The translations under genes and the position numbers were made by a program. From positions 3,612 through 67,611 of the forward strand of contig MFTQ01000004.1 of the NCBI GenBank assembly GCA_001785355.1: 64,000 bases of DNA, given 5' to 3'. This DNA comes from Candidatus Nomurabacteria bacterium RIFCSPHIGHO2_01_FULL_41_71 (GTDB lineage: Bacteria > Patescibacteriota > Minisyncoccia > Phycocordibacterales > UBA9973). Below, piece after piece: positions 9,908 to 31,829 of the stretch. Position 1 is the first letter of the stretch, and each line of letters opens with the position of its first letter. The notes below the pieces were generated by a model that did not search any database, was not told the DNA's origin, and saw nothing but the letters and a program-made list of their open reading frames with translations.

Positions 9908-10624
9908 ATGAAACTGATTCATCAAGTTCGGGCGGTAAAAAATAAAAGAGAAATTGCCAATATTAAAAAAGCTCAAAAATTAAGCGAATTATTACTTTAT
10001 GATGTTTTGAAAAAGTTAAAAACAGGAGTAACGGAATTCGACATTGCTCGATTTATAACTAATCGGTTTGTAAAATTAGGCGCGCCAATACTTTCTTTTC
10101 CGCCCATTGTGGCTTTCGGTAAAAATTCAGCCAATATTCATCATACCCCCGGCAAGACAAAACTCAGAAGGGGAGATTTCATTATGCTTGATTTTGGTTG
10201 CACAATAAATGGGTATTGTTCGGATATGACTCGCACTTATTTCTGGGGCGAACCGACAAAAAAACAAAAGAAAATTTATTTGGCTGTATTAGGAGCTCAA
10301 AATCGCGCTTTGAAACAAATCCAGAAAGGAGAGCGCAGGGCCAAAATCATAGACAGATTCGCGCGGGGTTTTCTGGCGAAAGTTTTCAAGAATAATTTTA
10401 AACACGGGCTTGGTCACGGAGTGGGAACCGTGATTCATGAATGGCCGAATTTCAAGCCAAAAAGCGAAGATATTATCCCTGCCGGATGCGTGATGACTGT
10501 CGAACCCGGGCTCTATTTTAAAGGTTTCGGCGGGGTGCGAATAGAAGATATGATTTTAATTGCAAAAAATGGCTACAAAAACCTAACTAACGTGCCAAAA
10601 GATATAAAAAGTGTTATACTGTAA
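9908..10624 (+). CDS. M24-family metallopeptidase (Xaa-Pro peptidase/MetAP-like catalytic domain only)
   Basis: DFGCTINGYCSDMTRT, HGLGHGVG and VEPGLY…GGVRIED form a pita-bread fold with the expected metal ligands. Confidence 0.65.
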   Translation: MKLIHQVRAVKNKREIANIKKAQKLSELLLYDVLKKLKTGVTEFDIARFITNRFVKLGAPILSFPPIVAFGKNSANIHHTPGKTKLRRGDFIMLDFGCTINGYCSDMTRTYFWGEPTKKQKKIYLAVLGAQNRALKQIQKGERRAKIIDRFARGFLAKVFKNNFKHGLGHGVGTVIHEWPNFKPKSEDIIPAGCVMTVEPGLYFKGFGGVRIEDMILIAKNGYKNLTNVPKDIKSVIL

Positions 10625-10628
10625 AGGC

Positions 10629-14088: not shown

Positions 14089-14159
14089 GGGTGGTTAGTT
14101 AAGTGGCATAACTGCGGTCTCCAAAACCGCCGTCGGGGGTTCGATTCCCTCACCACCCG
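14089..14159 (+). tRNA. tRNA-Trp (anticodon CCA)
   Basis: The acceptor stem GGGTGGT pairs with ACCACCC. The anticodon stem GCGGT/ACCGC carries the loop CTCCAAA, and the T-loop is GGTTCGATTCC. No CCA is encoded. Confidence 0.8.
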
Positions 14160-14166
14160 CACGTTG

Positions 14167-14183
14167 AAATCAGCTGATTTTTT
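14167..14183 (+). terminator. weak hairpin plus T-run after tRNA-Trp
   Basis: AAATCAGCTGATTT palindrome followed by TTTTT. The stem is AT-rich. Confidence 0.3.
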
Positions 14184-14303
14184 ATGGGTTATTTTTTGAC
14201 GCTCTGAAAGGGAATGGAACTTTGTCTAGTATGTTAACCTCAGTTCGTCTAAGATAGTCAACCATTAATGCATCATTAACAGCTAGCACGAGACACATAG
14301 AAG

Positions 14304-14312
14304 TGCTAAAAT
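14304..14312 (+). promoter_or_regulatory. extended -10 (TGCTAAAAT) six nt upstream of the giant-ORF ATG, possibly leaderless
   Basis: The same TGCTAAAAT motif heads both 116-bp repeats at 18733 and 19843. Confidence 0.3.
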
Positions 14313-14318
14313 CTATAA

Positions 14319-17300
14319 ATGAAAATGGAGTCGCCAGTTTTTACAGAAAGGTCTAAAAGGTCAAAAGAACCTTTGGAACCACACGATATTCCCTCGGCTA
14401 TGAGCCAGATTAAAGAGGGACAAGAACAAACTCCTGACCAAGAAAGAATCTTGATTGATATACAAACCTATCTTGATGCAGCTCATGATATTTTTGAAGA
14501 TATAGAAACTAAAAGACCAATATTACCAGACTTACCCGAAAGCCCTAGCGCAGAAGTGCCGCTTGATTTCTCTGAACTTTCTCGGCAGTTGAAATCTAAA
14601 TTAGCTCAATTAGACAAAATGACTTCTAGAAGTTTTGGAGCACAACATAGGCTAAGCGAAGCTGGTCATAGAAATAGACGAAGAATAGAAAAAGTAGAAG
14701 ACCCTGTGGATGAATATTCCAAATGGTCGAGTACCTTGGAAAGTCAGTATTCAAATGTAAATTCCCAAATTAAACCTCTCGAAGCCGCATTAGTTCTACA
14801 TCGAGAATGCCAAGAATTAGGTAAAGAATATAAAACTATAATAAGCAGAAGATTTTCGGTGCCTGAGAAAGATTTAAGAAATCAGATAGATAAATTACTA
14901 GAAGAGTGCCTTTCACAAATAAGAGCTTTAGGAAGAAATCCTTTAAAATACACCGAGAAGCTAGCATTAAAAAGAAAGTGTGCTGAATTTATTGATATCA
15001 CACACAAAGTATATTTGATTGAAAATCTTTTTCCCGAAATAAGACATTCAGGATATAACTATGCTCTTAGTTGGAAAGATGGTTTAAAATATGACATATC
15101 GATACCCGTTGGCCATCTGTACGAACAAGTAGGTGTGAATTTACGTTTAAAAATCAATCAGTTAAAAACTTTAATCGCAGAAAGCAAAAAAAAAGAAACA
15201 GACGCAATTTCTCCGAAAGATTTAGCAATTCTTAAAGGAGATTTTTTTACAAAATATGTCCTTCCTCACATTTCCAATCTTCCTCCAGATATTCAAGCCG
15301 AAATATTATCCGAATATAATGAAAAAGGAACTGTTTACTTAAATCGATATGGTGTAGAAGACAGAAATGCCGCGGAAAGAATATCTTATGCTAGAATGAA
15401 TGAAAAAATAGAAGACAGTTTTAAATCGCTTGCTGATTTGCTTCGTAATGGAGATCCTGTCGGTGAAGCTTATAAATTGATTAAGCAAGAATTACCGAAG
15501 TTAATGGAAGAGCGTCCTTTGAAATATGATTTTGATGATATTTCTCGAACTCGACTTGAAAGTCCTATAATGAGAGCGGTCAAAGAATTACCTCGGCTGA
15601 AAGTTTTTATGGAAAGCCATGTGTTCCTTAATGCTACACCCGAAGAGCGAGAGAGGTTTCTAGAAAATGCCAGAAGTTTGATAAGTGAATATCTAAGTCA
15701 AGGAAAAATTATTGAGCCTACATCTCTAGCGGATAAATTATTATCACATCCAAACCCCGCAATCGCTCTAGAAATCATAGATTCTAGCTCCAATGAAAGC
15801 CGTAGTAGAAGCAACGAAGCAATACTTTTTATTTTTCAGCTTTTTCGGGAAAGTTCGGTAGAATCTGAAAGAAGTATTTTATCGAATATGCTTCATCGGT
15901 TCACCAATGACATAACTACCTATCAAGATCAGATTGTTGAAATCTTGCCCAGCCAAAGTAAAAGTATATATATTTTAGGCAGAGAGCTACTAATGAAACT
16001 GGCCACTCAAAATATGCCTATACCGCCTTTGTTATGGGAGCGAATGGAATCATATTTGGAAGATACGGTTGAACATATGGAAAAGGAAAAGGATTATAAG
16101 ATTCTAGTTCCTATTCTTAACGAAATCGCCAACGGAAGTGAAGCAGGTAATAGATATTTTGCCAACGAAGCGCTCATGTTGGCTATATATAGACATTTAG
16201 GTAAGGCTAATTTTATGCTTCCTGACGGATTGTTATTCATTAAAGATTCTAAAAACATCAATCTTATTATCGAGGGTTATAGAAAATATTTTGGTATGCA
16301 AAGCATCGATTTACCAGATAGCGAAAAATTCCAACTTGCTTTTCAAAAAGGATTGACCATTACTCAGCTATTTTCTCATTATGACAATGATGTAGAGAGT
16401 TTCTTTGACGATAAATTATTTCAAAAACTTTATGAATATCCGGAACTTGAGAAGCTTCTGACTGATCTTATTAGTCGCATTCAAACATTAAGCGATAGAA
16501 CTATTATTTCTCGAATTTTTTATTCTGTTCTACCATTCCTTCTAGAGACAGCATTCGCCGTCGATTCCAAAGAAGGTGAAACCGAATTTACGGCTCGTCT
16601 GAATAGAATATCAGAGTATTATGAAAAAGTTCTAGAAAAAACTAAGGAAGAAAAAAGTGCTCTTCAATTTTACTTGGGCGATAGTGCTTGGGAAGTAATA
16701 AAATTTCATCCACATCCAACCGATCTTCTTCTAGAATTTCCCGAACAAGCTCCGCTTTTATTTAAGGAAGAGCAAAGAGGACTTCAGAATCTCATATCTT
16801 CGAATTTTAATGTGCTTATAAAGGATAAGACGGATATGATTTTTCTAAATCAACTTGTTGGTAGATTTGGAGGAAATGCTCCCCAGCTAATAACAGACTA
16901 TCTTCAATGTTTAAAAGAAGGCGCGCTCACATTGGACGAAAAAGGATTAGTCGAAGAATTTCTTGGAAAATTTAGAGTTCTTTCGCCTGCCATTATAAAT
17001 GGTTATCGAGAAGCAAAAGCATCGCATACAGAGGAAGTTTTCATTGCTGGTTTAGAATCGATTGCCGAGCATGCTACTGGGCAAGGTAATCCAACTGAAA
17101 CACAACGACAGTCTCCATTTTATAAAGATGTTTTAAGGGCCATTTATCAAAACAATTCCGGACAATGGACTACTTTCGAGAAGAATGAGAGCTGTAAAGA
17201 CAGGTCAGCGGATTTACAAGGCTTCAAAATAAAAGAACGTTATGAAATCGATCTTCTGGCGGCTGGAGATATTAAAATGAAGCCAGGAGCAGAATTAGAT

Positions 17301-18521
17301 CGGAAAGGAATGGCGCAACTTGAAGAAGGAGTTACTTATATAGCAGACGAATTTAAGGCAGCTAATTTTGATCCGGAAATAGTTAAGAAAAAGGTCAATG
17401 ACCGTATCGAAGAAGTCTTCAATTTATTTACTGGAAGCGAAGTATTAAAAGATCTTGATGTAACGTCACTGACGCTTGAGCAAAAATTATTTATTATTTT
17501 ATCAGAAACAACTTACGGAACACCTCCAATTGAACCCAGAGAAGTTAAAAAACTTCTTTTTGAATACGAATTTGCTAACTTCGAAGATATTCGGGAATAC
17601 ATTCAAGGTACAAACGATAGAGTAGCAACTGCTCAAAATCGAGATTATGCTCTCTTGTGCGAATTCCATAGTCTTTTTGCCGACAGAATCAAAGAAATCA
17701 ACCGCCGACTGATTACGGCCGGATGGGAAAATACCGAGATTGCTAAAAAAATGCCGGCATATTTTGCGCAATTATCAAAAAAACGTGGAGACGCCGCAAG
17801 GGTAGAAAAAATAAATAAATTACAAATTGGAAAACTCGGCTTGAATGATACATTTTTGAAACAAATGAAAAGAGTGTTGAATAAAAAAGCAGGCACCAAT
17901 TATTCTGACGAACAAGTACGGCAAATTATTGCTAGATATGAAAGAATGACATCTGGATTGACAGAAACTAGTACATCTACCAAAGGAAGAACTCGCGAAT
18001 TTGCCGGTCAATTACGCGGGCAAAAAGAGAAAACCAGAAAAGCATTAGAGTTACTAGACGGCAAAAAACTAAATCCGGAAGAATTCCGTTTGGGCCATTT
18101 AGATTTCAATCAATATCTTGATGCCGAAAATGCAATTGGAAAAGGAACGTACAACGATGAACAATTTGCTTCATACACACTTCAACAATTTATCGGTATT
18201 TTTACCGAAGAACGAGAATTTGTTGAGGGAGAACTTGATAAATTTATGACTTCTTCCGGGAAAAATCGAGCGCGGCTTAGTGGTTACATTTCCAAATCTC
18301 CTGAGACTGCTCACGCCCGTATGGTTGGTGGAGTATGCGTTTCCGGAGATAATCCAAATCGAGGAGAAAAAAACATGTGGGATATGGAAAATTATTTTCA
18401 GTTAGTTCTTCAAGATCCAGAAACTAAACGCTGCCAGGGTATAGTATTGCTCCATCATTTCGAAGAGAACGGCCAGAAAATTTTAACTGCAGCTTTTAAT
18501 CCCTATGGCAAATGGATTTGA
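14319..18521 (+). CDS. 1400-aa orphan hypothetical protein, probably cytoplasmic
   Basis: One uninterrupted ORF. By eye it has no signal peptide or TM segment and no Walker A or HExxH motif. The sequence is rich in helix-favouring and acidic residues. Confidence 0.7.
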   Translation: MKMESPVFTERSKRSKEPLEPHDIPSAMSQIKEGQEQTPDQERILIDIQTYLDAAHDIFEDIETKRPILPDLPESPSAEVPLDFSELSRQLKSKLAQLDKMTSRSFGAQHRLSEAGHRNRRRIEKVEDPVDEYSKWSSTLESQYSNVNSQIKPLEAALVLHRECQELGKEYKTIISRRFSVPEKDLRNQIDKLLEECLSQIRALGRNPLKYTEKLALKRKCAEFIDITHKVYLIENLFPEIRHSGYNYALSWKDGLKYDISIPVGHLYEQVGVNLRLKINQLKTLIAESKKKETDAISPKDLAILKGDFFTKYVLPHISNLPPDIQAEILSEYNEKGTVYLNRYGVEDRNAAERISYARMNEKIEDSFKSLADLLRNGDPVGEAYKLIKQELPKLMEERPLKYDFDDISRTRLESPIMRAVKELPRLKVFMESHVFLNATPEERERFLENARSLISEYLSQGKIIEPTSLADKLLSHPNPAIALEIIDSSSNESRSRSNEAILFIFQLFRESSVESERSILSNMLHRFTNDITTYQDQIVEILPSQSKSIYILGRELLMKLATQNMPIPPLLWERMESYLEDTVEHMEKEKDYKILVPILNEIANGSEAGNRYFANEALMLAIYRHLGKANFMLPDGLLFIKDSKNINLIIEGYRKYFGMQSIDLPDSEKFQLAFQKGLTITQLFSHYDNDVESFFDDKLFQKLYEYPELEKLLTDLISRIQTLSDRTIISRIFYSVLPFLLETAFAVDSKEGETEFTARLNRISEYYEKVLEKTKEEKSALQFYLGDSAWEVIKFHPHPTDLLLEFPEQAPLLFKEEQRGLQNLISSNFNVLIKDKTDMIFLNQLVGRFGGNAPQLITDYLQCLKEGALTLDEKGLVEEFLGKFRVLSPAIINGYREAKASHTEEVFIAGLESIAEHATGQGNPTETQRQSPFYKDVLRAIYQNNSGQWTTFEKNESCKDRSADLQGFKIKERYEIDLLAAGDIKMKPGAELDRKGMAQLEEGVTYIADEFKAANFDPEIVKKKVNDRIEEVFNLFTGSEVLKDLDVTSLTLEQKLFIILSETTYGTPPIEPREVKKLLFEYEFANFEDIREYIQGTNDRVATAQNRDYALLCEFHSLFADRIKEINRRLITAGWENTEIAKKMPAYFAQLSKKRGDAARVEKINKLQIGKLGLNDTFLKQMKRVLNKKAGTNYSDEQVRQIIARYERMTSGLTETSTSTKGRTREFAGQLRGQKEKTRKALELLDGKKLNPEEFRLGHLDFNQYLDAENAIGKGTYNDEQFASYTLQQFIGIFTEEREFVEGELDKFMTSSGKNRARLSGYISKSPETAHARMVGGVCVSGDNPNRGEKNMWDMENYFQLVLQDPETKRCQGIVLLHHFEENGQKILTAAFNPYGKWI

Positions 18522-18732
18522 CCGGATAGAAGTTTCTAAAAGTAAAACAATCCGCACTAACCGGACTGGAGGAGAATTTGAACGTGAAATGGATCGACGA
18601 ATCACTGCAATTGGTGTCACTGATGCCTTTGCTGAACCTAGACAGTTCTCATTCAATCCGAACTATAATTTAAAAGACATGGACGTAATATGGGAGAAAA
18701 AAAAAGTATAGAGAATTATTTCTTTTAAAATG

Positions 18733-18848
18733 TGCTAAAATAAGGCTTGTTTATTAGATTAAGCAATCAAATTAAATCCTTCAAAAACACTATTCCACTT
18801 AAGAATCATTGTTTGTATAGTGTTCCACTCCAGGATTTGAAAGCCCGC
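18733..18848 (+). repeat. 116-bp direct repeat copy R1 (candidate structured sRNA)
   Basis: Aligns without gaps to 19843..19958 at 98/116 identity. It starts with TGCTAAAAT and contains the AACACTAT…ATAGTGTT hairpin. Confidence 0.7.
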
Positions 18849-19057
18849 ACAATTTAATTTCTTTTTCACTTTTAGTTTAGTGTTTTTGCTTTTAATATTT
18901 TCCCTTCAGAAACTTTCTAAGTTAAAAAACTTTTGAAGGGAGAGGGGTATGAACAAATCAATGCAAGAACCCCTCTTCTTATGTCTCACTACGCACGTGA
19001 GACCTGCGTCCTCATTTTTATAAAAACGGGGATAAAATTAAAGGACAGCGAAGGTCG

Positions 19058-19639
19058 CTACCACTCCGTGAACATGACCTTCCCGCCGTCATAGATAATC
19101 AGACGGCGGAAATTCATCCCAGGGATTCGGGTCAGAGCGAACTCGACATAACCCTTGTCTGCGTGATAGATGACCCCGTCTATCACTTGAGACTTCACGG
19201 CAAGGTGCGCCAAGTGCTGATGGGGTTGATTCCTGCCCTGATTCAGTGCGGGACAATCGAGAGTAACCAGGTCAATGTTCTGAATCTGGACGCCGTCAGC
19301 GCCGTGCCAGATCCCAACAATAACCCTAGTGCTATTCTGCACGTTCTGGAAGGTAAACGTGCAGAAGGGGACTTGACCATTCTCCCACAGCACTGCCGAC
19401 TTCCAGACTCCCTGGGCTCTCTTGACATCAAAATCCACCACTGGTTTTCCGTCAAGCACCTTGGGACAGGGACTCGCCATGTCAACAAGAATCCGTGCCA
19501 GATAGCGGATCGCGGGTTGGACATCCCTCTTGGCCAACCTTTCCAGCATTTCCGGACGTCCGCCCAAGGCGACGACCTCTTCCTCCAGTGCTTGCCAGAA
19601 CGACTTCCAGATGTCGCAGACGCGAATGAACTCCAACAT
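19058..19639 (-). CDS. hypothetical protein in a ~55% GC cassette
   Basis: 193-aa ORF (MLEFIRVCDIWKSFWQALEEEVVALGGRPE…). The overlapping ORFs 19163..19726(+) and 19243..19710(-) are judged GC-richness artefacts. No family was recognised. Confidence 0.4.
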   Translation of the reverse strand: MLEFIRVCDIWKSFWQALEEEVVALGGRPEMLERLAKRDVQPAIRYLARILVDMASPCPKVLDGKPVVDFDVKRAQGVWKSAVLWENGQVPFCTFTFQNVQNSTRVIVGIWHGADGVQIQNIDLVTLDCPALNQGRNQPHQHLAHLAVKSQVIDGVIYHADKGYVEFALTRIPGMNFRRLIIYDGGKVMFTEW

Positions 19640-19842
19640 ATGTCCCCCGTTACGCGGCTGTGCCCTATGGTCTGGCTTAATTGCCAGAGCTGTGAGCTGT
19701 ACCGCCGCATTCGAGCATTACTTTAACATACCTTTCAAATAAATCAAGGCCATAAGGTAATGTGAAAGCGGGCTTTCCATTTTTACTTTCTGTTCTATGA
19801 CTCAATAGTTAACCCCTTTAATTTTTAAAGGTAATTAAAGTA

Positions 19843-19958
19843 TGCTAAAATAAGGCTGGTTTATTAGATTAATTTACCAGATTAAAACCCTGGAAAACAC
19901 TATTCCATTTTATAACCATATTTTCTATAGTGTTCCAGTCCAGGATTTGAAAGCCCGC
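19843..19958 (+). repeat. 116-bp direct repeat copy R2
   Basis: 84% identical to R1. Substitutions at positions 48, 50, 51 and 96 create a CTGG/CCAG helix that R1 lacks. Confidence 0.7.
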
Positions 19959-20018
19959 TTTGAGTGGAAATAGGCTTTTCAAGAAACTTGAATGGGTATA
20001 TACTTATGACGTAACTTT

Positions 20019-20411
20019 ATGAAATACGTTTTCACCACAATTTTAATTTTTAGCTTTATCGGCATAGCTGTGTTCGGTTTGTTACAGTTTAGTCATGCCA
20101 GTCACACACCCGAGGCGCCGATGATAAATTGTCCCTACGCAGAGAATAGTTACTCAATCTGCCAAAGTAGTCTTGATCATATCAAAAACTGGCGTCAATT
20201 TTCGAATGTGATTATTCCATCGCTATCCATTTTCTCACTTCTGGTTTTAGGAATAGTCTTGTATCTATTCGGTAAACAGAATCTTTTAAAACAAAACCAG
20301 TATTTTTATAAATGGAAATATTTTTTATACGATCAAAAGTTACATACCTACAAAGAAAGAATAATCAAATGGCTAGCACTTTTTGAAAATAGCCCCTCTC
20401 TTTCATATTAA
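20019..20411 (+). CDS. hypothetical small membrane protein
   Basis: 130 aa with two hydrophobic helices and two Cys in the extracytoplasmic loop. Confidence 0.4.
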   Translation: MKYVFTTILIFSFIGIAVFGLLQFSHASHTPEAPMINCPYAENSYSICQSSLDHIKNWRQFSNVIIPSLSIFSLLVLGIVLYLFGKQNLLKQNQYFYKWKYFLYDQKLHTYKERIIKWLALFENSPSLSY

Positions 20412-20492
20412 GACATAGCTCTGAATTTTGTCGTAAAATTTTTAGTTATGTCTTTTAAGTCCTTCACAAGAGGATTTTTACTATTGTAAATT

Positions 20493-21071
20493 ATGGAAAA
20501 AAATATGAAAGACAAAAATAAAATTATCGCATTCATCGTTATAATAGCAATTCTTATCATTGGGCTTTTCTTTTTTGGAAAGCCTGGTAAAGATGAAGGT
20601 GTTGCAACCAGCGCTAAAGGAATTCCAGAAGGCGCTCAAGAATTAGTAAACTCACATACAGCAGGAACAGAAGATATAACTACAAGTATTTTGACTGCCC
20701 CAGAAACATTCTATGACTTCGGCACTATCTCTATGAAGAATGGCAATGTAAGTAAAGTATTTAAAGTAACTAACTTCACAACTCAAGATATAAAAGTACC
20801 AAGTTTAACCACTTCTTGTATGTGCACCACTGCGTACATCATAAAATCAGATGGAAGTAGAAGTAGACCTTTTGGTATGCCTGGTCACGGCGGGGCAGTT
20901 CCCAAGGCCAACGCTATCGTAGGAGCCGGTGGATCACTCGACATTGAAGTTGTCTTTGATCCGAATGCTCACGGTCCGGCCGGAGTCGGACTTATTGAGC
21001 GCGTCGTTTTTCTGGAAGACGAGAACAAAAATACAGTCGAGCTCAAGTTTAGAGCTAACGTAACTCCATAA
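20493..21071 (+). CDS. DUF1573-like membrane-anchored protein
   Basis: An N-terminal TM anchor, then FYDFGTISMKNGNVSKVFKVTN…SCMCTT…PGHGG. This resembles the DUF1573 S-C-x-C-T core. Confidence 0.5.
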   Translation: MEKNMKDKNKIIAFIVIIAILIIGLFFFGKPGKDEGVATSAKGIPEGAQELVNSHTAGTEDITTSILTAPETFYDFGTISMKNGNVSKVFKVTNFTTQDIKVPSLTTSCMCTTAYIIKSDGSRSRPFGMPGHGGAVPKANAIVGAGGSLDIEVVFDPNAHGPAGVGLIERVVFLEDENKNTVELKFRANVTP

Positions 21072-21076
21072 ATAAT

Positions 21077-21859
21077 ATGAAAAAATTCATTATTACAATT
21101 AGCATTATTATTATTATTGTTATAGTTGGATTAGTTGTGCTAAAAAATAGTTCAATTATTTCATCAATAATCTGGAGTTTGAGTAGAGAAGGTACTTGGC
21201 TTCTGCCCCTTGTCCTTATTGCCGCCATCCTAGATAGCGTGCATCCCTGCTCATTCTCAATTCTTCTTATAACCATTGCATTTCTTTTTGGTATGCAAGT
21301 AAGTCGAAAAAAAATCCTTCAACTAGGTGGGACATATGTAGTTGGTATATTCATGGCATATTTCCTAATTGGGCTTGGAATACTAAAAGTACTGCATCTC
21401 TTCAATACCCCCCATTTTATGGGGAAATTGGGGGCGACGGTTCTTATTATCTTTGGTGTGTTAAATCTTCTTAATCGTTTCTTTCCGGCATTTCCGATCA
21501 AACTCAAAATTCCAGGAGTAGCTCATTCAGCTATGAGTAAGTTCATGGATAAAGCGTCGTTTCTTGCTGTATTTATCCTTGGAATACTTGTTGGTATTTG
21601 CCAATTCCCATGTATGGGTGGACCATACCTTATGGTTATCGGACTCTTGCGCGATCAAATGACATATATGAGCGGATTCAATTATCTTTTGCTCTATAAC
21701 TTCATTCTGATTATTCCCTTGGTTGCGATTTTGTTCATATCAGCAAACAAATTATTGGTTGACAAAATGCAGATATGGAAGCGTGACAATATAGACGAAG
21801 TCCGACTTTGGGCGGGAATTGCCATGATTATTATTGGAATCTTAATTTTCTTTATTTAA
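21077..21859 (+). CDS. DsbD/CcdA-family thiol-disulfide transmembrane protein-like
   Basis: A polytopic membrane protein. It has a conserved LDSVHPCSFSILL helix and a second Cys-bearing helix, GICQFPCMGGPY. Confidence 0.45.
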   Translation: MKKFIITISIIIIIVIVGLVVLKNSSIISSIIWSLSREGTWLLPLVLIAAILDSVHPCSFSILLITIAFLFGMQVSRKKILQLGGTYVVGIFMAYFLIGLGILKVLHLFNTPHFMGKLGATVLIIFGVLNLLNRFFPAFPIKLKIPGVAHSAMSKFMDKASFLAVFILGILVGICQFPCMGGPYLMVIGLLRDQMTYMSGFNYLLLYNFILIIPLVAILFISANKLLVDKMQIWKRDNIDEVRLWAGIAMIIIGILIFFI

Positions 21860-21861
21860 TT

Positions 21862-22173
21862 ATGATTATTCCCATAATATCTATTTTTCTCTTGACTCTA
21901 AGCGTATGGGTAATTAATAAAAAATTGCCTATACAAATCTGTTCTATTTGCGCTGGGGTAACACTCACGTGGCTTTGGATGCTTGGAGGGATGTGGTTGG
22001 GGTTTATTTCTGTTTCTCGTTATGAGTTTCCAGTTGCAATCTTGATGGGCGCTACAATCGGGGGCATCGTGACAGAACTCAAAAAAATGTTCTTGAAATT
22101 CAGAAACAAAAATGAGTTAAAAGAAAATAAAGAAGTCGAATCATTAGAAGATAAGTTAAAAAATTGTTGCTGA
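21862..22173 (+). CDS. small membrane protein with a CxxC motif at a TM boundary
   Basis: MIIPIISIFLL…LPIQICSICAGVTLTWLWM and a C-terminal CC. An internal ATG is used to avoid overlap with the upstream gene. Confidence 0.4.
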   Translation: MIIPIISIFLLTLSVWVINKKLPIQICSICAGVTLTWLWMLGGMWLGFISVSRYEFPVAILMGATIGGIVTELKKMFLKFRNKNELKENKEVESLEDKLKNCC

Positions 22174-22174
22174 A

Positions 22175-22981
22175 ATGAAAAATAGAATAAAAGAAATATT
22201 ATATGGATTTTTAGTTATTTTTGTGATTTTGGTTTTGGGTTTTACTCCAGTTGCCCAAAAAGAATTATTTTCTTTGGATTGGAAAAACTTTGGCTTACAA
22301 ATGGTCGAAGCTGGAGTAATTGATCAAACAAAGTTTGAAAATCTCTATACCCAAAGAGGCGGACTGAGCGAAGCTGATAAAAAATTGCTTTACGGAGCTG
22401 ATAATAAAAATCTTGTAATTAATTCTGAAAACTCAGGAGTAGTGTTAAATATGCTTTGGGCTTTTGGGCTAGCTAATAAGAATCCGATTCTAGAAAATGG
22501 TTCGATAATGGACCCTAAATATGGAGGTGCGGGAAATTTCGCATCTACGGGCGGATGGACATTGGCCAAAGGAAATGCAATGGATCACTACAGTATGCAT
22601 TCGTTTGTGACACTTACACCAGAACAGCAAGCACTCGTCGAAAGGGTTTCAAAAGGAATATTTAGACCATGTTGCAACAATTCGACTTATTTTCCGGATT
22701 GTAATCACGGCATGGCTATGCTGGGATTACTAGAACTTATGGCTTCACAAGGAGCAACTGAAGCAGATATGTATAAAATTACCTTAGAGGTAAATACACT
22801 GTGGTTTCCAGATACATACGAAGCAATTAAAACCTTTGTCACATCTCAAGGTATTGATTGGAACACCATTGACCCAAAAAAAATCCTAGGAGCTGATTAT
22901 TCGAGTGTGTCGGGGTATCAAAAGATATTATCACAAATAAAACCACAGGAACAAAAGGGAGGAGCAAGCTGTGGAGCTTAA
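22175..22981 (+). CDS. membrane-anchored Cys-rich hypothetical protein
   Basis: An N-terminal TM anchor and the cluster RPCCNNSTYFPDCNHGM. Confidence 0.45.
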   Translation: MKNRIKEILYGFLVIFVILVLGFTPVAQKELFSLDWKNFGLQMVEAGVIDQTKFENLYTQRGGLSEADKKLLYGADNKNLVINSENSGVVLNMLWAFGLANKNPILENGSIMDPKYGGAGNFASTGGWTLAKGNAMDHYSMHSFVTLTPEQQALVERVSKGIFRPCCNNSTYFPDCNHGMAMLGLLELMASQGATEADMYKITLEVNTLWFPDTYEAIKTFVTSQGIDWNTIDPKKILGADYSSVSGYQKILSQIKPQEQKGGASCGA

Positions 22982-23002
22982 AAGATTAATTAAAAAATCA
23001 TT

Positions 23003-23533
23003 ATGAAAACAGAACACAAAGTATTTATAGGAATTGGATTATTAACATTAGTTATTATCGTGGGTGGCACATTGTTGTCTACCAAAGGGGGATTAAAAAA
23101 ACAAGAAGAACTTAGCAAGACCATGATGGGAGAAAAGATTGCTGATTTAGGCGCAGCGCATGTTGCAAAAAATGCGCCACATTCGGGATATAATTCAAAT
23201 CCTCCGACTTCCGGACCACATTGGACTGGCGTGGCGGGAGCCGGAATTAAAGACGAGCCTGTTCCCGACGAACTTGTGCTTCATAGTATGGAGCATGGCG
23301 CAGCGGTTGTGTGGTATAGGGAGGATTTAGCACAAAGTGATGTAGATATAATTAGGAGCGCATTTCAAAGTGCATCCGGGAAAAAAATAATGTTGCCACG
23401 TAAAGATCTAGATGTTCCAGTCGCTCTTACATCATGGGGTTACCTTCTTGAACTTGATACGATTGATGGTGAAAAAATTAAAAAATTCATAGAAACCAAT
23501 AACGATAGGGCCCCAGAGAAAGCGCCTATTTAA
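23003..23533 (+). CDS. DUF3105-like membrane-anchored protein
   Basis: NPPTSGPHW and HSMEHGAAVVWY motifs after an N-terminal TM segment. Confidence 0.5.
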   Translation: MKTEHKVFIGIGLLTLVIIVGGTLLSTKGGLKKQEELSKTMMGEKIADLGAAHVAKNAPHSGYNSNPPTSGPHWTGVAGAGIKDEPVPDELVLHSMEHGAAVVWYREDLAQSDVDIIRSAFQSASGKKIMLPRKDLDVPVALTSWGYLLELDTIDGEKIKKFIETNNDRAPEKAPI

Positions 23534-23559
23534 GGAATTGGTTATCCACAGCTCTTGAT

Positions 23560-23597
23560 TTGACAATAGGATATAGGGGTATATACTACTATAGTAG
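23560..23597 (+). promoter_or_regulatory. promoter TTGACA-16-TATACT with a CTACTATAGTAG palindrome over the -10/TSS (candidate CsoR operator)
   Basis: The -35 box is at 23560-23565 and the -10 box at 23582-23587. The 12-bp perfect palindrome is at 23586-23597, and csoR starts 31 nt downstream. Confidence 0.35.
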
Positions 23598-23627
23598 GTC
23601 GAGATTAATAACTAATTTATATAAATT

Positions 23628-23900
23628 ATGTTAGATCAAAAATTAAAAAAGAGAGCATTACATCGGGCTAAAATAATTCGTGGTCAGATAGATGGTCTAG
23701 TTAAAGCAATTGAGGTAGAAAAATATTGTGTTGATCTCATTACACAATCTCGGTCAATTCAACTGTCATTAAAAAGTATGGATAGGTTACTTTTGGCTAA
23801 CCATCTTCAGGGACATGTAAAGCATATGCTCAATGACACAAAACAAGAACATAAAGTCATTAAAGAACTCGTGGATCTGTATGCATTATCAAATAAATAA
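23628..23900 (+). CDS. CsoR/RcnR/FrmR-family metal-sensing transcriptional repressor
   Basis: 90 aa. LHRAKIIRGQIDGLVKAIEVEKYCVDLITQSRSIQ…ANHLQGHV shows the DUF156 fold signature with Cys and His ligand positions. Confidence 0.65.
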   Translation: MLDQKLKKRALHRAKIIRGQIDGLVKAIEVEKYCVDLITQSRSIQLSLKSMDRLLLANHLQGHVKHMLNDTKQEHKVIKELVDLYALSNK

Positions 23901-23905
23901 AATTT

Positions 23906-24157
23906 ATGAATACTACACGTGCCATTAAAATAGGATTAGCTTGGATAAACATCACATATATATTATGTTATGTCATTTGGGGATTATTGCCTATAGCCCG
24001 ACCATCAGTTCTTCCATATATTTTGCATCTTAATGTGGGTCCTGTAGAAACTATCTTTACCTTCGGTAATTTCATTGGTGGACTGGTTCTTTGGAATGTG
24101 ATTACGGGAGCTGGTATTTGGTTTGTTGGTTTTCTTGCTAAATATATTAAAAATTAA
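23906..24157 (+). CDS. hypothetical small membrane protein
   Basis: 83 aa and very hydrophobic. Confidence 0.4.
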   Translation: MNTTRAIKIGLAWINITYILCYVIWGLLPIARPSVLPYILHLNVGPVETIFTFGNFIGGLVLWNVITGAGIWFVGFLAKYIKN

Positions 24158-24171
24158 TTACAAAAATTGAT

Positions 24172-24417
24172 ATGATGTACGGATATAATAACTATGGTGA
24201 TTGGGGTGCTGGTAGTATGGTAGGTTGGTTTGGTGGTGGATTTATGATGTTTTTTTTCTGGGCTCTGATTATTATCTTCATTGTTTGGGTTGTGCGTGAA
24301 GTTGGCAGTAAAAATTCAAAATCAGGATCAAATGCTCTTGATATTTTAAAAGAACGATATGCAAAAGGTGAGATTGATAAAAAAGAGTTCGAGGAAAAGA
24401 AAAAAGATTTAATTTAG
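24172..24417 (+). CDS. SHOCT-domain membrane protein
   Basis: A TM helix, then LDILKERYAKGEIDKKEFEEKKKDL. This is the SHOCT short C-terminal motif. Confidence 0.6.
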   Translation: MMYGYNNYGDWGAGSMVGWFGGGFMMFFFWALIIIFIVWVVREVGSKNSKSGSNALDILKERYAKGEIDKKEFEEKKKDLI

Positions 24418-24431
24418 TAAAATAAAATTCT

Positions 24432-24755
24432 ATGAAACTAGGTATTATTTTACAATCAAATAAACCAGAACACATATGGAATACATTTCGTCTTGGCATT
24501 ACTACACTTAAAGCTGGGCATCAAGCGGAAGTTTTTTTAATGAACGAAGGTTCAGAATTAGACTCTATTCCTGACACCAAAGATTTTGATATTTCTGCAA
24601 GAGTGGCTGAATTCAAAAACCTAAAAGGTAATGTTTATGTTTGTGGCACTTGTATAAAATTACGGGGAAAAGAAAGCAACATATGTCCAGTTTCCACGAT
24701 GTCGGACTTACTTAAAATGGTTGAAAGTTCAGATAAAGTTTTAGTTTTTGGTTAA
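24432..24755 (+). CDS. DsrE/DsrF-like family protein
   Basis: 107 aa. ILQSNKPEH…VCGTC with a conserved Cys is typical of DsrE-like proteins. Confidence 0.5.
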   Translation: MKLGIILQSNKPEHIWNTFRLGITTLKAGHQAEVFLMNEGSELDSIPDTKDFDISARVAEFKNLKGNVYVCGTCIKLRGKESNICPVSTMSDLLKMVESSDKVLVFG

Positions 24756-24813
24756 AATTAGCATTTAATAAAAATAATTCTTAATTTTGGCATCTTAAAA
24801 AATCTTTAAAGAT

Positions 24814-27051
24814 ATGAAAAATAATTACCAAGATCATAAGGAAACAGAAGAAATAATATATACCTGCCCAATGCACCCGGAAGTAATCAAGAACATTCCT
24901 GGCTCATGCCCAAAGTGTGGCATGAGACTTGTGAAGACTGAAGCAAAAACACGCAATAGTGATCATGCTGGTCATGTAATGGGTGATCCATCAAAAATGG
25001 GTTTCTGGGAGAAATTTAAAATGAGCATGTCGATGACAATGGGTATGGATCATACAGGACTTGCCGGTCGGGAAATGGCGCGTCTCATGGAGATAGATAT
25101 TCGGAATAAATTCTTCTTCACGCTTATTCTTACAATTCCTATTATTTTGTATTCACCTCTAGGCACGGAGTTTCTGAAAATTAATCTTCCTTTCCCAATA
25201 CCACTTCCCTGGCTCCTCTTTATTTTAACAACACCGGTATTTTTCTATTCTGGTTGGATTTTTCTATATTCAACATACTTTGCTCTCAAAAGTAAGGTGC
25301 TCAATATGGCGGTGCTCATTGCCGTCGGTATTACCGCGGCTTATGGCTTCAGCATTTTATTAACCCTGATCGGTAGTGCCGATTCATATTACGAAGCGGC
25401 CGCTATGCTTATTACTTTTGTCTTGTTTGGTCACTGGATGGAGATGAAATCTCGTCGCGGAACAACCGACGCTCTCCAAGCACTTTTCAATCTCGTCCCG
25501 CCTCAAGCCAGAATTTTTAAAGATGGGAAGGAAGTAATGGTTTCCACTTCAGATATACAACTTGGCGACATTATTATATTGAAGCCGGGAGACAAGGTTC
25601 CTGTCGATGGAGAAATTACCGAAGGGGAAACCGCCATAGATGAATCTTTGGTTACTGGGGAATCAATTCCTACTTCAAAAAAGATTGGGGATCAAGTAAT
25701 TGGCGGATCAATCAACACTGCCGGATCGGTGAAATTTAAGGCGACAAAAGTCGGCAAAGACACCGCTCTTGCACGAATTGTGGCGATGGTTGAAGAAGCG
25801 CAGAATTCAAAAGCCCCTGGACAAAGAATTGCTGATCAGTTTGCAAAATATTTAGTTATTGGGGCAGTCGGATCTGGTCTTTTAGTTTTTGGTGTTTGGT
25901 ATTTTATTATGGGGGTACCGATTATTCTAGCACTCTCCTTTGCGATCGCTACGGTTGTCATTGCCTGTCCCGATGCGTTAGGACTTGCTACACCGACTGC
26001 TGTGGCTGTCGGCACAGGCCTCGGAGCAAAACATAATATTCTTATAAAAGATGCACCAACTCTTGAACAAGTTTCAAAAATCCAAGCCATTGTGCTCGAT
26101 AAAACAGGAACTCTAACTGAAGGAAAGCCGAAAATAATAGATGTTGCTACCGTAGATGGTTTTGATGCAAGCGAAGCACTTCGTCTAGTCGGTGCGGCTG
26201 AAGCTAAGTCATCCCACCCTTTGGCTGGTGCGGTACTCAATGAACTTAAAAAACGTGGCCTTACATTGCCAGAGTCGGTTGATAAATTTGAAAATCTTTC
26301 TGGCTTGGGGGTGAAAGCTATCGTAGATGGAAAACAAGTTCTGATAGGTACAGTGAAGCTCATGAAAGAAAACAACATTGTTCTCGGGGCATTAAAGAAA
26401 CAAATAAATGAGTTTCTGGAAAAAGGGGAAACGATCATGATTCTTGCGGTTGACGGCGCTGTCAAAGCTGTAATCGGTGCGGCTGATCCAATAAAACCTA
26501 CCGCTGTAAAAACGGTTGAACGATTGAAGGCTTTGGGTATTGAAATTGCCATGATCACGGGCGACAATAAAATGACCGCAGAAAAAGTAGCCAGTCAAAT
26601 TGGCATCGAAAGAGTGTTTGCTGAAGTAATGCCTGCAGACAAAGCAAGCTATGTAAAAAAGTTACAACAGGAAGGAAAATTCACGGCCATGGTCGGAGAT
26701 GGAGTTAACGACGCACCCGCGCTCGCTCAATCTGATGTGGGCATTGCCATTGGTGCAGGCACGGACGTAGCTATAGAGACCGCAAAAGTCGTGTTGATGA
26801 AATCTGACCCGTTAGATATACTGCGAGCAATAACCTTGAGCAAGGCAACAGTTCGCAAAATGAAACAAAATCTTTTCTGGGCTTCAATTTATAATGTTCT
26901 AGCGATACCAGTTGCCGGTGGAATTCTGTATCCTAGCTTCGGTATTATGCTTCGTCCGGAATTTGCGGCACTCCTTATGAGTATTTCTTCAATAATCGTT
27001 GCAACAAATGCAGTATTATTAAAAAGAGTCGAGAAAGATTTAGTAGTATAA
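24814..27051 (+). CDS. copA: copper-translocating P1B-type ATPase
   Basis: N-terminal TCPMHPEV…CPKCGM metal-binding domain and a Met-rich MSMSMTMGM stretch. The other motifs are TGES, DKTGTLT and GDGVNDAPAL. The TM6 motif reads CPD where CPC is usual. Confidence 0.9.
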   Translation: MKNNYQDHKETEEIIYTCPMHPEVIKNIPGSCPKCGMRLVKTEAKTRNSDHAGHVMGDPSKMGFWEKFKMSMSMTMGMDHTGLAGREMARLMEIDIRNKFFFTLILTIPIILYSPLGTEFLKINLPFPIPLPWLLFILTTPVFFYSGWIFLYSTYFALKSKVLNMAVLIAVGITAAYGFSILLTLIGSADSYYEAAAMLITFVLFGHWMEMKSRRGTTDALQALFNLVPPQARIFKDGKEVMVSTSDIQLGDIIILKPGDKVPVDGEITEGETAIDESLVTGESIPTSKKIGDQVIGGSINTAGSVKFKATKVGKDTALARIVAMVEEAQNSKAPGQRIADQFAKYLVIGAVGSGLLVFGVWYFIMGVPIILALSFAIATVVIACPDALGLATPTAVAVGTGLGAKHNILIKDAPTLEQVSKIQAIVLDKTGTLTEGKPKIIDVATVDGFDASEALRLVGAAEAKSSHPLAGAVLNELKKRGLTLPESVDKFENLSGLGVKAIVDGKQVLIGTVKLMKENNIVLGALKKQINEFLEKGETIMILAVDGAVKAVIGAADPIKPTAVKTVERLKALGIEIAMITGDNKMTAEKVASQIGIERVFAEVMPADKASYVKKLQQEGKFTAMVGDGVNDAPALAQSDVGIAIGAGTDVAIETAKVVLMKSDPLDILRAITLSKATVRKMKQNLFWASIYNVLAIPVAGGILYPSFGIMLRPEFAALLMSISSIIVATNAVLLKRVEKDLVV

Positions 27052-31787: not shown

Positions 31788-31829
31788 ACCCCGATTTTAG
31801 CATTTATTGCTCCGAGCTTCAATTTCCCA

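What the first reader, a model, noticed from the sequence alone, without database searches (positions are those of the whole stretch)
18733..19958. Two 116-bp direct repeats, each headed by an extended -10 and carrying a hairpin with compensatory changes, bracket a high-GC cassette
R1 (18733..18848) and R2 (19843..19958) align without gaps at 98/116 identity. Both begin with TGCTAAAAT, the same extended -10 found 6 nt upstream of the giant ORF. Both contain the hairpin AACACTAT…ATAGTGTT. The substitutions between copies are concentrated where they create alternative helices: R2 gains CTGG/CCAG through changes at positions 48, 50, 51 and 96, while R1 instead pairs TTCAAA with TTTGAA. This pattern suggests transcribed, structured sRNAs under selection rather than inert repeats. 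Alternatively they are the terminal direct repeats of a 1.2-kb mobile cassette whose cargo is the 55% GC gene at 19058..19639.
Basis: seen in the sequence. Interest (0 to 1): 0.7.

Follow-up and report, generated by a model that had tools for sequence, protein, structure and literature searches.

The report
Shared end-sequence of stacked tRNA-Trp island cassettes
The two 116-bp repeats are the common right-hand ends of two gene modules stacked behind a tRNA-Trp gene in an uncultured groundwater bacterium; they most likely serve as recombination sites for swapping accessory genes, and the evidence does not support a pair of small-RNA genes.

Summary
The repeat is real: 98/116 identical, two copies in the window. 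The "compensatory changes" reading fails once five more variants are added (no covariation above shuffles).

R1 and R2 each close one module of a 5,798-bp island (14161-19958) that starts right after tRNA-Trp. Near-clonal strains from the same aquifer (Cand. Nomurabacteria, CPR) lack the island. In them the tRNA end ...CCCGC joins directly to the sequence that follows R2's ...CCCGC. The 20.4 kb of flanks differ by one base.

R-family copies occur at seven further places in related genomes. Each lies at the right end of unrelated cargo: HicAB, radical SAM + CYTH, OtsA + a membrane protein. Each ends in the invariant ...TCCAGGATTTGAAAGCCCGC and diverges immediately afterwards. Where the contig reaches far enough, tRNA-Trp lies to the left. 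No cargo encodes a recombinase.

One near-clonal variant swapped module B for another. Five of its six mismatches lie inside R1, so homologous recombination also uses R.

Best reading (about 0.55): R is the element-borne arm plus core of an att-type site on integrase-less cassettes, and probably also carries an outward promoter (TGCTAAAAT). It is integron-like in layout but is not a canonical attC. I rate it a new variant of a known kind, of moderate interest.

The parts
14089..14160 (+). tRNA-Trp (CCA) gene. Its last bases CCCGC (14156-14160) are the shared core, or junction, of the island.
   Evidence: ARAGORN and Rfam. The empty-site haplotype L004 reads ...caccacccgc|tttgagtgg. The BLAST overlap of the left and right flanks is CCCGC.
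14161..19958 (+). The 5,798-bp island, made of module A plus module B. It is present or absent as a block in near-clonal genomes.
   Evidence: Compared with L004, the left flank is 9,940/9,940 identical and the right flank is 10,457/10,458 identical, and the island is missing. Empty alleles are L004, L008, L012, L166, L168 and L169. Filled alleles are L005, L007, L011, L140 and others, some from the same samples.
14161..14318 (+). Left end of module A. It holds a palindrome plus T-run (AAATCAGCTGATTT at 14167-14180 followed by a T-run; terminator-like), an inverted copy of the tRNA-Trp T-arm (AGGGAATGGAAC, 14209-14220) and TGCTAAAAT (14304-14312).
   Evidence: Sequence. The 12-mer matches the minus strand of the tRNA T-arm with one mismatch, and recurs at the same +48 offset in the left end of L138 module 2.
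14319..18521 (+). Cargo of module A: an orphan 1,400-aa ORF, probably leaderless.
   Evidence: No Pfam, PHROG, NCBIfam or PDB match. Only 3 relatives among 5.8 billion proteins. The relative in L159 keeps TGCTAAAAT-N6-ATG. The ORF is split in some strains.
18505..18711 (+). Cargo of module A: a 68-aa ORF overlapping the end of the giant ORF.
   Evidence: always found together with the giant ORF.
18725..18848 (+). R1, the right-end repeat of module A. It ends in GAAAGCCCGC (core 18844-18848).
   Evidence: In L141 the same module A is followed by a hybrid R and then by a different module.
18849..19842 (.). Cargo of module B: a self-contained expression unit for a 193-aa protein (19058-19639, minus strand; 54.5% GC), with its own promoter/leader region (about 19640-19730) and downstream hairpins.
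   Evidence: Homologues at 51-57% identity, with the same leader, sit in four other variable CPR loci.
19765..19777 (-). GAAAGCCCGCTTT, an inverted exact copy of the 13 nt that span the junction between R2 and the chromosome. It is seen only at R2 and is unexplained.
   Evidence: The ssDNA fold of 19755-19970 closes with this 13-bp stem, z = -4.5.
19787..19958 (+). R2, the right-end repeat of module B. The 116-nt body is 19843-19958, and a further upstream extension of about 40-55 nt is shared with L024, L130 and L131. The core is 19954-19958.
19959..20411 (+). Native chromosomal flank with its own promoter-like site (TTTTCA-17-TATACT, 19976-20004), and the 130-aa ORF (20019-20411) that starts a metal-resistance cluster.
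   Evidence: It is identical in empty and filled alleles. Promoter scan; gene content.

Best explanation
R1 and R2 are copies of one conserved end-sequence, about 116-170 nt long. It closes each gene module in a variable island built directly behind the tRNA-Trp gene of Candidatus Nomurabacteria.

Proposed mechanism. A module (cargo + R) recombines through the short core (G)CCCGC at the very 3' end of R. Its partner is the identical core at the 3' end of tRNA-Trp or at the end of an R already in place. Modules therefore stack head-to-tail (tRNA | A-R1 | B-R2 | chromosome) and can leave again precisely. R would be the element-side arm of the att site, bound by a recombinase supplied in trans, because no module encodes one. 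Because all modules carry R, it also works as portable homology, and homologous recombination inside R swaps the downstream modules. R probably also carries an outward-facing extended -10 promoter (TGCTAAAAT) that reads into whatever lies to its right.

Shown: the architecture, the precise presence/absence, the sharp 3' boundary, the unrelated cargo, and one homologous-recombination event inside R.

Inferred: the site-specific recombinase, the circular intermediate, and promoter activity.
For: (1) Precise empty site. L004 and the window are identical over 9,940 nt on the left and differ at 1 of 10,458 nt on the right. The 5,798-bp island is bounded by CCCGC on both sides. Both alleles coexist in the same samples.

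(2) Seven distinct R variants sit at different right ends of unrelated cargo. These are the giant ORF; the 193-aa gene; HicB/HicA (L137); CYTH + radical SAM (L138/L024); and OtsA + OtsB or NeuB + a 151-aa membrane protein (L130/L131). Cross-comparison of the loci finds nothing shared except R.

(3) Every copy is identical through ...TCCAGGATTTGAAAGCCCGC and unrelated from the next base onward. The last 32 columns hold 1 variable site against 26 of 85 elsewhere, Fisher p = 0.001. The 5' edge is ragged: it is replaced by a terminator in L137 and by an ORF end in R1.

(4) tRNA-Trp lies to the left in the window, L137 and L138. In L138 a degenerate R' (...CCACTCTGAAAGCCCGC) separates two modules. 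In L137 the tRNA's own last 17 nt are repeated 151 nt downstream. That is a classical att remnant, and the HicAB + R unit starts right after it. All six unit left ends examined begin CCCGC|A.

(5) Two left ends (window module A and L138 module 2) share AGGGAATGGAAC at the same +48 offset, which could be a P'-arm.

(6) L141 matches the window over 15,831 nt with 6 mismatches. Five of them fall within 26 nt of the centre of R1, and a different module follows CCCGC. This indicates a crossover inside R.

(7) Promoter. TGCTAAAAT-N6-ATG occurs at the giant ORF, at relA, and in the 81%-identical homologue in L159. The 9-mer is intact in 5 of 7 R variants.
Against: No recombinase was found in any module or anywhere in the 64-kb window. 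No circular or episomal form and no parent element with an integrase was found.

The identity between R and the tRNA end is only 5-6 nt, which is short for a tyrosine-recombinase overlap plus binding sites. Most left ends show no convincing common sequence.

The one module swap that could be dated (L141) used homologous recombination, not the core. In a transformable population (dprA at 34837-35703) the empty/filled polymorphism could be maintained by homologous recombination alone. The junction in L131 looks like a deletion remnant rather than a clean site.

Only seven variants are known, and all come from one lineage in groundwater metagenomes.
Confidence: 0.55

Rival explanations
1. R is only a conserved linker. 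Modules are exchanged purely by natural transformation and homologous recombination, using tRNA-Trp/rpmG on the left and R or the flanking genes on the right. This is the 'minimal mobile element' style, and no site-specific recombinase is involved.
For: L141 shows a crossover inside R in a near-clonal background. dprA is in the window. R variants are mosaics of each other. No recombinase was found.
Against: Homologous recombination cannot create the first insertion. The island joins the tRNA end and the native flank to the base through a 5-nt core. R's terminal bases equal the tRNA's terminal bases. Each of at least 5 units (window A and B, L137 HicAB, L138 modules 1 and 2) is bracketed by CCCGC. 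The last 32 nt of R are nearly invariant (p = 0.001), which homology alone does not require.
Confidence: 0.2
2. R1 and R2 are independent small-RNA genes. They would be transcribed from TGCTAAAAT, fold into a hairpin-containing structure, and be kept by selection on the RNA.
For: The extended -10 is plausible and is used elsewhere in this genome. The 8-bp hairpin is kept in all 7 variants, and its only two changes give G-U/U-G pairs on the plus strand. GGCT/AGCC could close the 5' and 3' ends. Fold z-scores are about -2 on the plus strand and weaker on the minus strand.
Against: Covariation equals the shuffles (445/500). The proposed alternative helices do not co-vary in the extra copies. No terminator lies within R or is conserved after it. 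There is no Rfam family. The promoter part is replaced in L137 and weakened in L024, yet the 3' 100 nt are kept. R is absent from near-clonal strains, so it is dispensable. Two wobble changes are expected by chance about one time in four.
Confidence: 0.12
3. R is a canonical integron attC site, and the island is an integron array or a CALIN.
For: The layout matches: stacked cassettes of unrelated, often single, genes (including a toxin-antitoxin pair), each closed by a conserved, imperfectly palindromic site of about 120 nt, at 84-93% identity as in sedentary chromosomal integrons. There is no recombinase inside the cassettes. A 193-aa homologue sits in an attC-like array in L020.
Against: R has no GTTRRRY or RYYYAAC box on either strand. 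The crossover is at CCCGC. No intI or attI lies next to the array; the neighbours are rpmG and housekeeping genes. One module is 4.7 kb with two genes. The array is anchored on a tRNA end.
Confidence: 0.04
4. R2 with its upstream extension (19765-19961) is a MITE-like element of about 197 nt with 13-bp terminal inverted repeats, and R1 is a truncated copy.
For: There is a perfect 13-bp inverted repeat AAAGCGGGCTTTC/GAAAGCCCGCTTT. The ssDNA fold has z = -4.5.
Against: The left inverted repeat is absent from all six other variants. The right repeat includes 3 nt (TTT) that belong to the native flank in the empty allele. There is no target-site duplication. Copies always sit at module ends in one orientation relative to tRNA-Trp.
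Confidence: 0.04

Closest known systems
tRNA-gene-linked genomic islands built by tandem site-specific integration, including integrase-less cis-mobilizable elements (CIMEs, described for Streptococcus thermophilus ICESt1/ICESt3) and tycheposon arrays at tRNA genes in Prochlorococcus (both recalled from my own knowledge)
   Same: The island starts exactly at the 3' end of an intact tRNA gene. Several units are stacked head-to-tail, and each is delimited by a repeated att-type sequence. Units without their own integrase would depend on one supplied in trans. Presence/absence between close strains is precise. Classical tRNA-3'-end repeats occur at the same kind of site in L137 and in a Doudnabacteria locus.
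   Different: The repeated sequence is not a copy of the tRNA 3' part. R shares only 5-6 nt (CCCGC or GCCCGC) with the tRNA and otherwise is a 116-170-nt element-specific sequence. No integrase-bearing parent element was found. The modules are very small, 0.6-4.7 kb.
Integron gene cassettes and attC sites, especially sedentary chromosomal integrons and CALINs
   Same: Unrelated cargo units each end in a similar, partly palindromic site of about 120 nt. The recombinase is not in the cassette. Toxin-antitoxin cassettes are present. The site copies are 84-93% alike within a lineage.
   Different: There are no R''/R' consensus boxes. No IntI/attI neighbour is present. The anchor is a tRNA end. The crossover core is CCCGC. 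Some modules are multigene and carry their own promoters.
Minimal mobile elements of Neisseria (cassette exchange between conserved flanks by transformation and homologous recombination; recalled from my own knowledge)
   Same: Different cargo lies between conserved sequences in otherwise near-identical strains. There is direct evidence of a homologous crossover inside R. A competence-associated gene, dprA, is in the window.
   Different: The conserved anchor here travels with the cargo: R is absent from the empty allele, so it is not a chromosomal flank. The outer junctions also share a short core with the tRNA end.

Membership tests
Integron attC site / CALIN | R'' (RYYYAAC) and R' (GTTRRRY) core boxes at the two ends of the site, with the crossover in G|TT | tested here: not met
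   Neither box occurs on either strand of R1 (18725-18860) or extended R2 (19765-19970). The junctions fall after CCCGC.
Integron attC site / CALIN | A folded imperfect palindrome whose structure is conserved while its sequence varies | tested here: inconclusive
   The central 8-bp hairpin is always kept. The outer helices are 77-83% paired, with no covariation above shuffles. The IntegronFinder attC covariance model was not available.
Integron (complete) | An intI tyrosine recombinase and attI adjacent to the first cassette | tested here: not met
   The genes upstream of the array are rpmG, a racemase, ddl, map, rseP and frr. No recombinase domain was found among the ORFs of at least 150 aa in the 64-kb window.
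tRNA-integrating genomic island (Campbell-type, integrase-mediated) | Insertion exactly at, or inside the 3' part of, a tRNA gene that stays intact | tested here: met
   tRNA-Trp at 14089-14160 is intact and the island starts at 14161. The empty allele is known. The same holds in L137 and L138.
tRNA-integrating genomic island (Campbell-type, integrase-mediated) | A direct repeat of the tRNA 3' segment (the att core) at the far end of the element | tested here: inconclusive
   Only CCCGC (window) or GCCCGC (L137/L138-type tRNA) is repeated at the end of R. A true 17-nt tRNA repeat exists in L137, but for a different remnant.
tRNA-integrating genomic island (Campbell-type, integrase-mediated) | An integrase gene within the element, usually next to the tRNA | tested here: not met
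   Pfam, PHROG and NCBIfam scans of the cargo ORFs in the window modules, and Pfam scans of ten cargo ORFs from L130, L131 and L138, found none. The small ORFs of L137 and L141 and the L138 radical-SAM ORF were not scanned.
Cis-mobilizable element (integrase-less unit flanked by att sites) | Bounded by functional att sites and mobilised by a related element's integrase | not testable with these tools
   The architecture fits, but no integrase or parent element was found.
Bacterial sRNA gene | Its own promoter and its own terminator, or a defined 3' end, giving a discrete transcript | tested here: inconclusive
   A promoter-like TGCTAAAAT is present in 5 of 7 variants. No terminator-like site lies on the plus strand after R1 or R2, and the flanks are not conserved. 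No expression data were available.
Bacterial sRNA gene | Secondary structure supported by covariation | tested here: not met
Any Rfam family | A score at or near the gathering threshold | tested here: not met
   Only three tRNAs were found in the window. Nothing in R scores at E<=10.
MITE | Terminal inverted repeats on all copies, target-site duplication, dispersed copies | tested here: not met
   An inverted repeat occurs only at R2. There is no duplication beyond the core. The window has just the two R copies, both at module ends in the tRNA-Trp island.

The most novel reading that the evidence does not exclude
Nomurabacteria (CPR) possess a previously undescribed, integron-like cassette system. 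Its acceptor site is the 3' end of tRNA-Trp. Its cassettes each carry a folded or protein-bound site of about 120-170 nt (R) ending in GAAAGCCCGC. A single chromosomal or phage-borne recombinase, unrelated to IntI, would act on them in trans. R would also supply an outward promoter that expresses the next cassette.
Probability: 0.2. Interest if true: 0.75.

Novelty: new variant of a known kind. Interest (0 to 1): 0.45.

Why it matters
Mobile elements and the routes of gene flow in CPR/Patescibacteria are poorly known. These organisms have tiny genomes, and few recognisable integrases or transposons have been described in them.

This locus gives a concrete, testable case. The insertion point is fixed (the tRNA-Trp 3' end). 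The end-sequence that tags accessory modules is recognisable. Empty and filled alleles coexist in an almost clonal population. Homologous recombination inside the tag has demonstrably swapped modules. If a dedicated recombinase is found, R would define a new cassette system. If not, R is an example of portable homology that lets small-genome bacteria shuffle accessory genes by transformation.

There is also a practical point. Several of the contigs examined here end in or next to R, so R can explain assembly breaks in these metagenome-assembled genomes.

Tried and rejected
- Rfam, at the gathering threshold over the whole window and at E<=10 over 18400-20200: only tRNAs plus noise.
- Exact-pattern scans of viral contigs for the R 3' block, for the hairpin, and for an R-core-left-end 'attP junction': no hits. 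The looser CCCGC-A...AGGGAATGGAAC pattern gave 10 GC-rich chance hits with no tRNA nearby.
- BLAST of extended R2 against phage and plasmid collections: no match.
- The genome-collection scan with an 18-mer returned 108 loci, of which only L024 was real; the rest were chance matches.
- An nhmmer profile of R against all held loci found no further diverged copies, apart from the degenerate R' in L138.
- Covariation and RNAalifold gave no support for the proposed helices.
- The giant ORF as a hidden recombinase: no domain, PDB or family match, and only 3 relatives. Not supported, but not excluded.
- AlphaFold model of the 193-aa protein: pLDDT 50, too poor for a fold search. Its function remains unknown.
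- L131 as an independent clean junction: rejected, because about 20 nt after R resemble the start of the 87-aa ORF.
- Similarity of R's 3' end to the tRNA T-arm/acceptor: none beyond CCCGC, judged by eye from the sequences.
- Literature searches for CPR islands or integrons gave nothing specific.
Full report
**1. The observation**

R1 (18733-18848) and R2 (19843-19958) are a genuine direct repeat. They share 98 of 116 positions without gaps, and the homology runs 8 nt further left. Degenerate searches for three blocks of the repeat find only these two copies in the window, and none is expected by chance.

Both copies begin with TGCTAAAAT and contain the 8-bp hairpin AACACTAT/ATAGTGTT. The gene between them (19058-19639, minus strand, 193 aa) is 54.5% GC, against 40% for the window. 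No Rfam family matches, even at E<=10.

**2. The organism and the empty site**

The 193-aa protein is the hypothetical protein A2737_03150 of a Candidatus Nomurabacteria MAG from the Rifle aquifer.

I looked up contigs that encode exactly the 130-aa protein just right of R2, and the racemase and L33 genes on the left. This showed two alleles in the same samples. In one allele, rpmG - tRNA-Trp is followed directly by the 130-aa ORF. In the other, the giant 1,400-aa ORF, a 68-aa ORF, R1, the 193-aa gene and R2 lie between them.

The empty allele reads ...caccacccgc|tttgagtgg. Against the window, its left flank is 9,940/9,940 identical and its right flank is 10,457/10,458 identical. The two alignments overlap by exactly CCCGC.

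So 14161-19958 (5,798 bp) is an island inserted at, or excised from, the last bases of tRNA-Trp in an almost clonal background. R2 is its right terminus. Each module ends in R.

**3. More copies of R**

One genome-collection scan and one metagenome scan with the invariant 3' block gave real copies in L024/L138, L135/L130, L131/L132 and L137. A strain variant of R1 turned up in L141. That makes seven distinct variants, 84-93% alike (alignment A3).

Their cargo differs throughout:
- HicB/HicA in L137
- a CYTH protein and a high-GC radical-SAM enzyme in L138/L024
- OtsA, then OtsB or NeuB, then a 151-aa membrane protein in L130/L131

None of the cargo ORFs scanned is a recombinase. An all-against-all comparison finds nothing shared between the islands except R.

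Every copy is identical through ...TCCAGGATTTGAAAGCCCGC and unrelated from the next base. Variation is strongly skewed: 1 variable column in the last 32 against 26 in the other 85 (Fisher p = 0.001). The 5' edge is ragged. In L137 the first 17 nt are replaced by the terminator of hicA. In R1 the edge abuts an ORF. In R2, L024, L130 and L131 a further 40-55 nt are shared.

**4. The link to tRNA-Trp**

Where the contig reaches far enough, tRNA-Trp lies to the left.
- L138: tRNA-Trp | aldo-keto reductase ... CCACTCTGAAAGCCCGC (a degenerate R') | CYTH, radical SAM, R | miaA.
- L137: tRNA-Trp | a 151-nt remnant ending in a 17-nt direct repeat of the tRNA 3' end | HicBA, R | miaA.

The tRNA-derived repeat in L137 is the classical signature of integrase-mediated insertion at this tRNA. 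A Doudnabacteria locus shows the same at tRNA-Asn.

Each unit is bracketed by CCCGC, and in the six left ends examined the base after it is A. The left ends of window module A and of L138 module 2 share AGGGAATGGAAC at the same +48 offset. This 12-mer is an inverted copy of the tRNA-Trp T-arm with one mismatch, and it may be part of a P'-type arm.

**5. The RNA reading**

Only one pair shows a double change. RNAalifold keeps just the hairpin and a GGCT/AGCC closing stem, with no covariation energy.

The substitution at position 96 does not track those at 48/50/51 in the new copies. No terminator lies inside R, and none is conserved after it. Near-clonal strains lack R altogether. The two changes in the hairpin give G-U and U-G on the plus strand. 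That is compatible with folding of that strand, but it is expected by chance about one time in four.

I therefore rate a dedicated sRNA at about 0.12.

The promoter part of the reading holds up better. TGCTAAAAT sits 6 nt before the start codons of the giant ORF and of relA, and it is kept in an 81%-identical homologue of the giant ORF. It is therefore probably a real extended -10 that serves leaderless mRNAs in this organism. In R it would face outward, toward the next module. In L130/L132 an 87-aa ORF starts 2 nt after R.

**6. Mechanism**

The data fit stacked, integrase-less cassettes. In this model R is the element-borne arm, and (G)CCCGC is the crossover core shared with the tRNA end.

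What argues for site-specific recombination:
- the base-perfect empty site
- the common end point in eight contexts
- the identity of R's last bases with the tRNA's last bases
- the near-invariance of the terminal 32 nt
- the presence of classical att remnants at the same site

What argues for caution:
- No recombinase exists in the modules or in the 64-kb window.
- No episomal or viral parent was found.
- The one datable swap used homologous recombination. L141 is identical to the window over 15.8 kb except for six mismatches, five of them clustered in 26 nt at the centre of R1, and a different module follows. R variants are also mosaics of one another.

Both processes probably operate. Site-specific insertion would create units, and homologous recombination within R, helped by transformation (dprA in the window), would reshuffle them.

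**7. Comparison with known systems**

The layout resembles a sedentary integron or CALIN. However, R has no RYYYAAC/GTTRRRY boxes, there is no intI/attI, and the anchor is a tRNA end, so it is not a member of that family.

It is closest to tRNA-linked island arrays and cis-mobilizable elements. The difference is that the repeated sequence is element-specific rather than a tRNA fragment.

A MITE reading rests only on a 13-nt inverted copy next to R2. That copy is absent from all other variants and remains unexplained.

**8. Cargo**

The 193-aa gene is a self-contained unit with its own promoter-like region, a conserved leader hairpin and high GC. It recurs at 51-57% identity in four other variable CPR loci, one of which (L020) looks like an attC-type array. 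Its function is unknown: there are no family or PDB matches, and the AlphaFold model has pLDDT 50.

The giant ORF is an orphan and is already split in some strains.

**Verdict**

The repeats are the shared right ends of two modules in a tRNA-Trp-anchored cassette island. They most likely act as recombination sites that also provide portable homology and an outward promoter. I rate this a new variant of a known kind, in a phylum where such elements are barely described, with an interest score of 0.45.

Noticed in passing
L020 3700-12800 (JGI Ga0633490_0000518): An array of about 100-nt repeats lies between small genes of mixed orientation. Each repeat has GTTCTAAC ... GCCGAGCCAAC ... hairpin ... 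GTTAGAAC, which looks attC-like. One cassette holds a homologue of the window's 193-aa gene, and a terminase gene sits at the contig's left end.
   Followed up: partly
window 14304-14312 (+) and 31794-31802 (-); L159 122-130: TGCTAAAAT lies exactly 6 nt before the ATG of the giant ORF and of relA/spoT, and is conserved in an 81%-identical homologue. This suggests leaderless transcription from an extended -10 in this organism.
   Followed up: partly
window 19765-19777 (-) and 19949-19961 (+): The 13-mer GAAAGCCCGCTTT, which spans the junction between R2 and the chromosome, recurs inverted 65 nt upstream of R2. Single-stranded 19755-19970 folds with this 13-bp closing stem (z = -4.5). The inverted copy is absent from all other R variants and is unexplained.
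   Followed up: partly
window 14209-14220; L138 10413-10424: AGGGAATGGAAC, an inverted near-copy of the tRNA-Trp T-arm, lies 48 nt after the CCCGC core in two unrelated modules.
   Followed up: partly
L137 9138-9155 and 9289-9306; L016 6087-6099 and 6328-6340: Short direct repeats of the tRNA 3' end lie 150-240 nt downstream of the tRNA genes (17 nt of tRNA-Trp, 13 nt of tRNA-Asn). These are classical remnants of integrated elements in two CPR lineages.
   Followed up: partly
window 19640-19730 (-); L160 760-858; L020 7900-8000: The 193-aa gene family carries a conserved 5' leader with a CTGGCA...GCCAG hairpin and keeps a high GC content in several low-GC CPR hosts.
   Followed up: no
window 19959-27051: The metal-resistance cluster (DUF1573, DsbD-like, CsoR-like repressor, SHOCT, DsrE, heavy-metal P-type ATPase) lies between the island and miaA. 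In L137, L138 and L131, R abuts miaA directly, so this 7-kb cluster may itself be a variable segment.
   Followed up: no
L152/L165 (199 + 1132 aa), L167 (203 aa + 460 aa, the latter cut by the contig end): In some strains the giant ORF is called as two ORFs, which suggests frameshift decay of module A's cargo.
   Followed up: no
window 10611-13031: An 800-806-aa protein carries two tandem D-Ala-D-Ala ligase units (a Ddl-Ddl fusion), next to an Asp/Glu racemase.
   Followed up: no
L016 7192-7243 and 8594-8645: In the Doudnabacteria locus, 52-nt terminator-like direct repeats (98% identical) bracket a 1.4-kb unit that holds a SnoaL-like gene and the 188-aa homologue. The unit lies downstream of tRNA-Asn.
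   Followed up: partly
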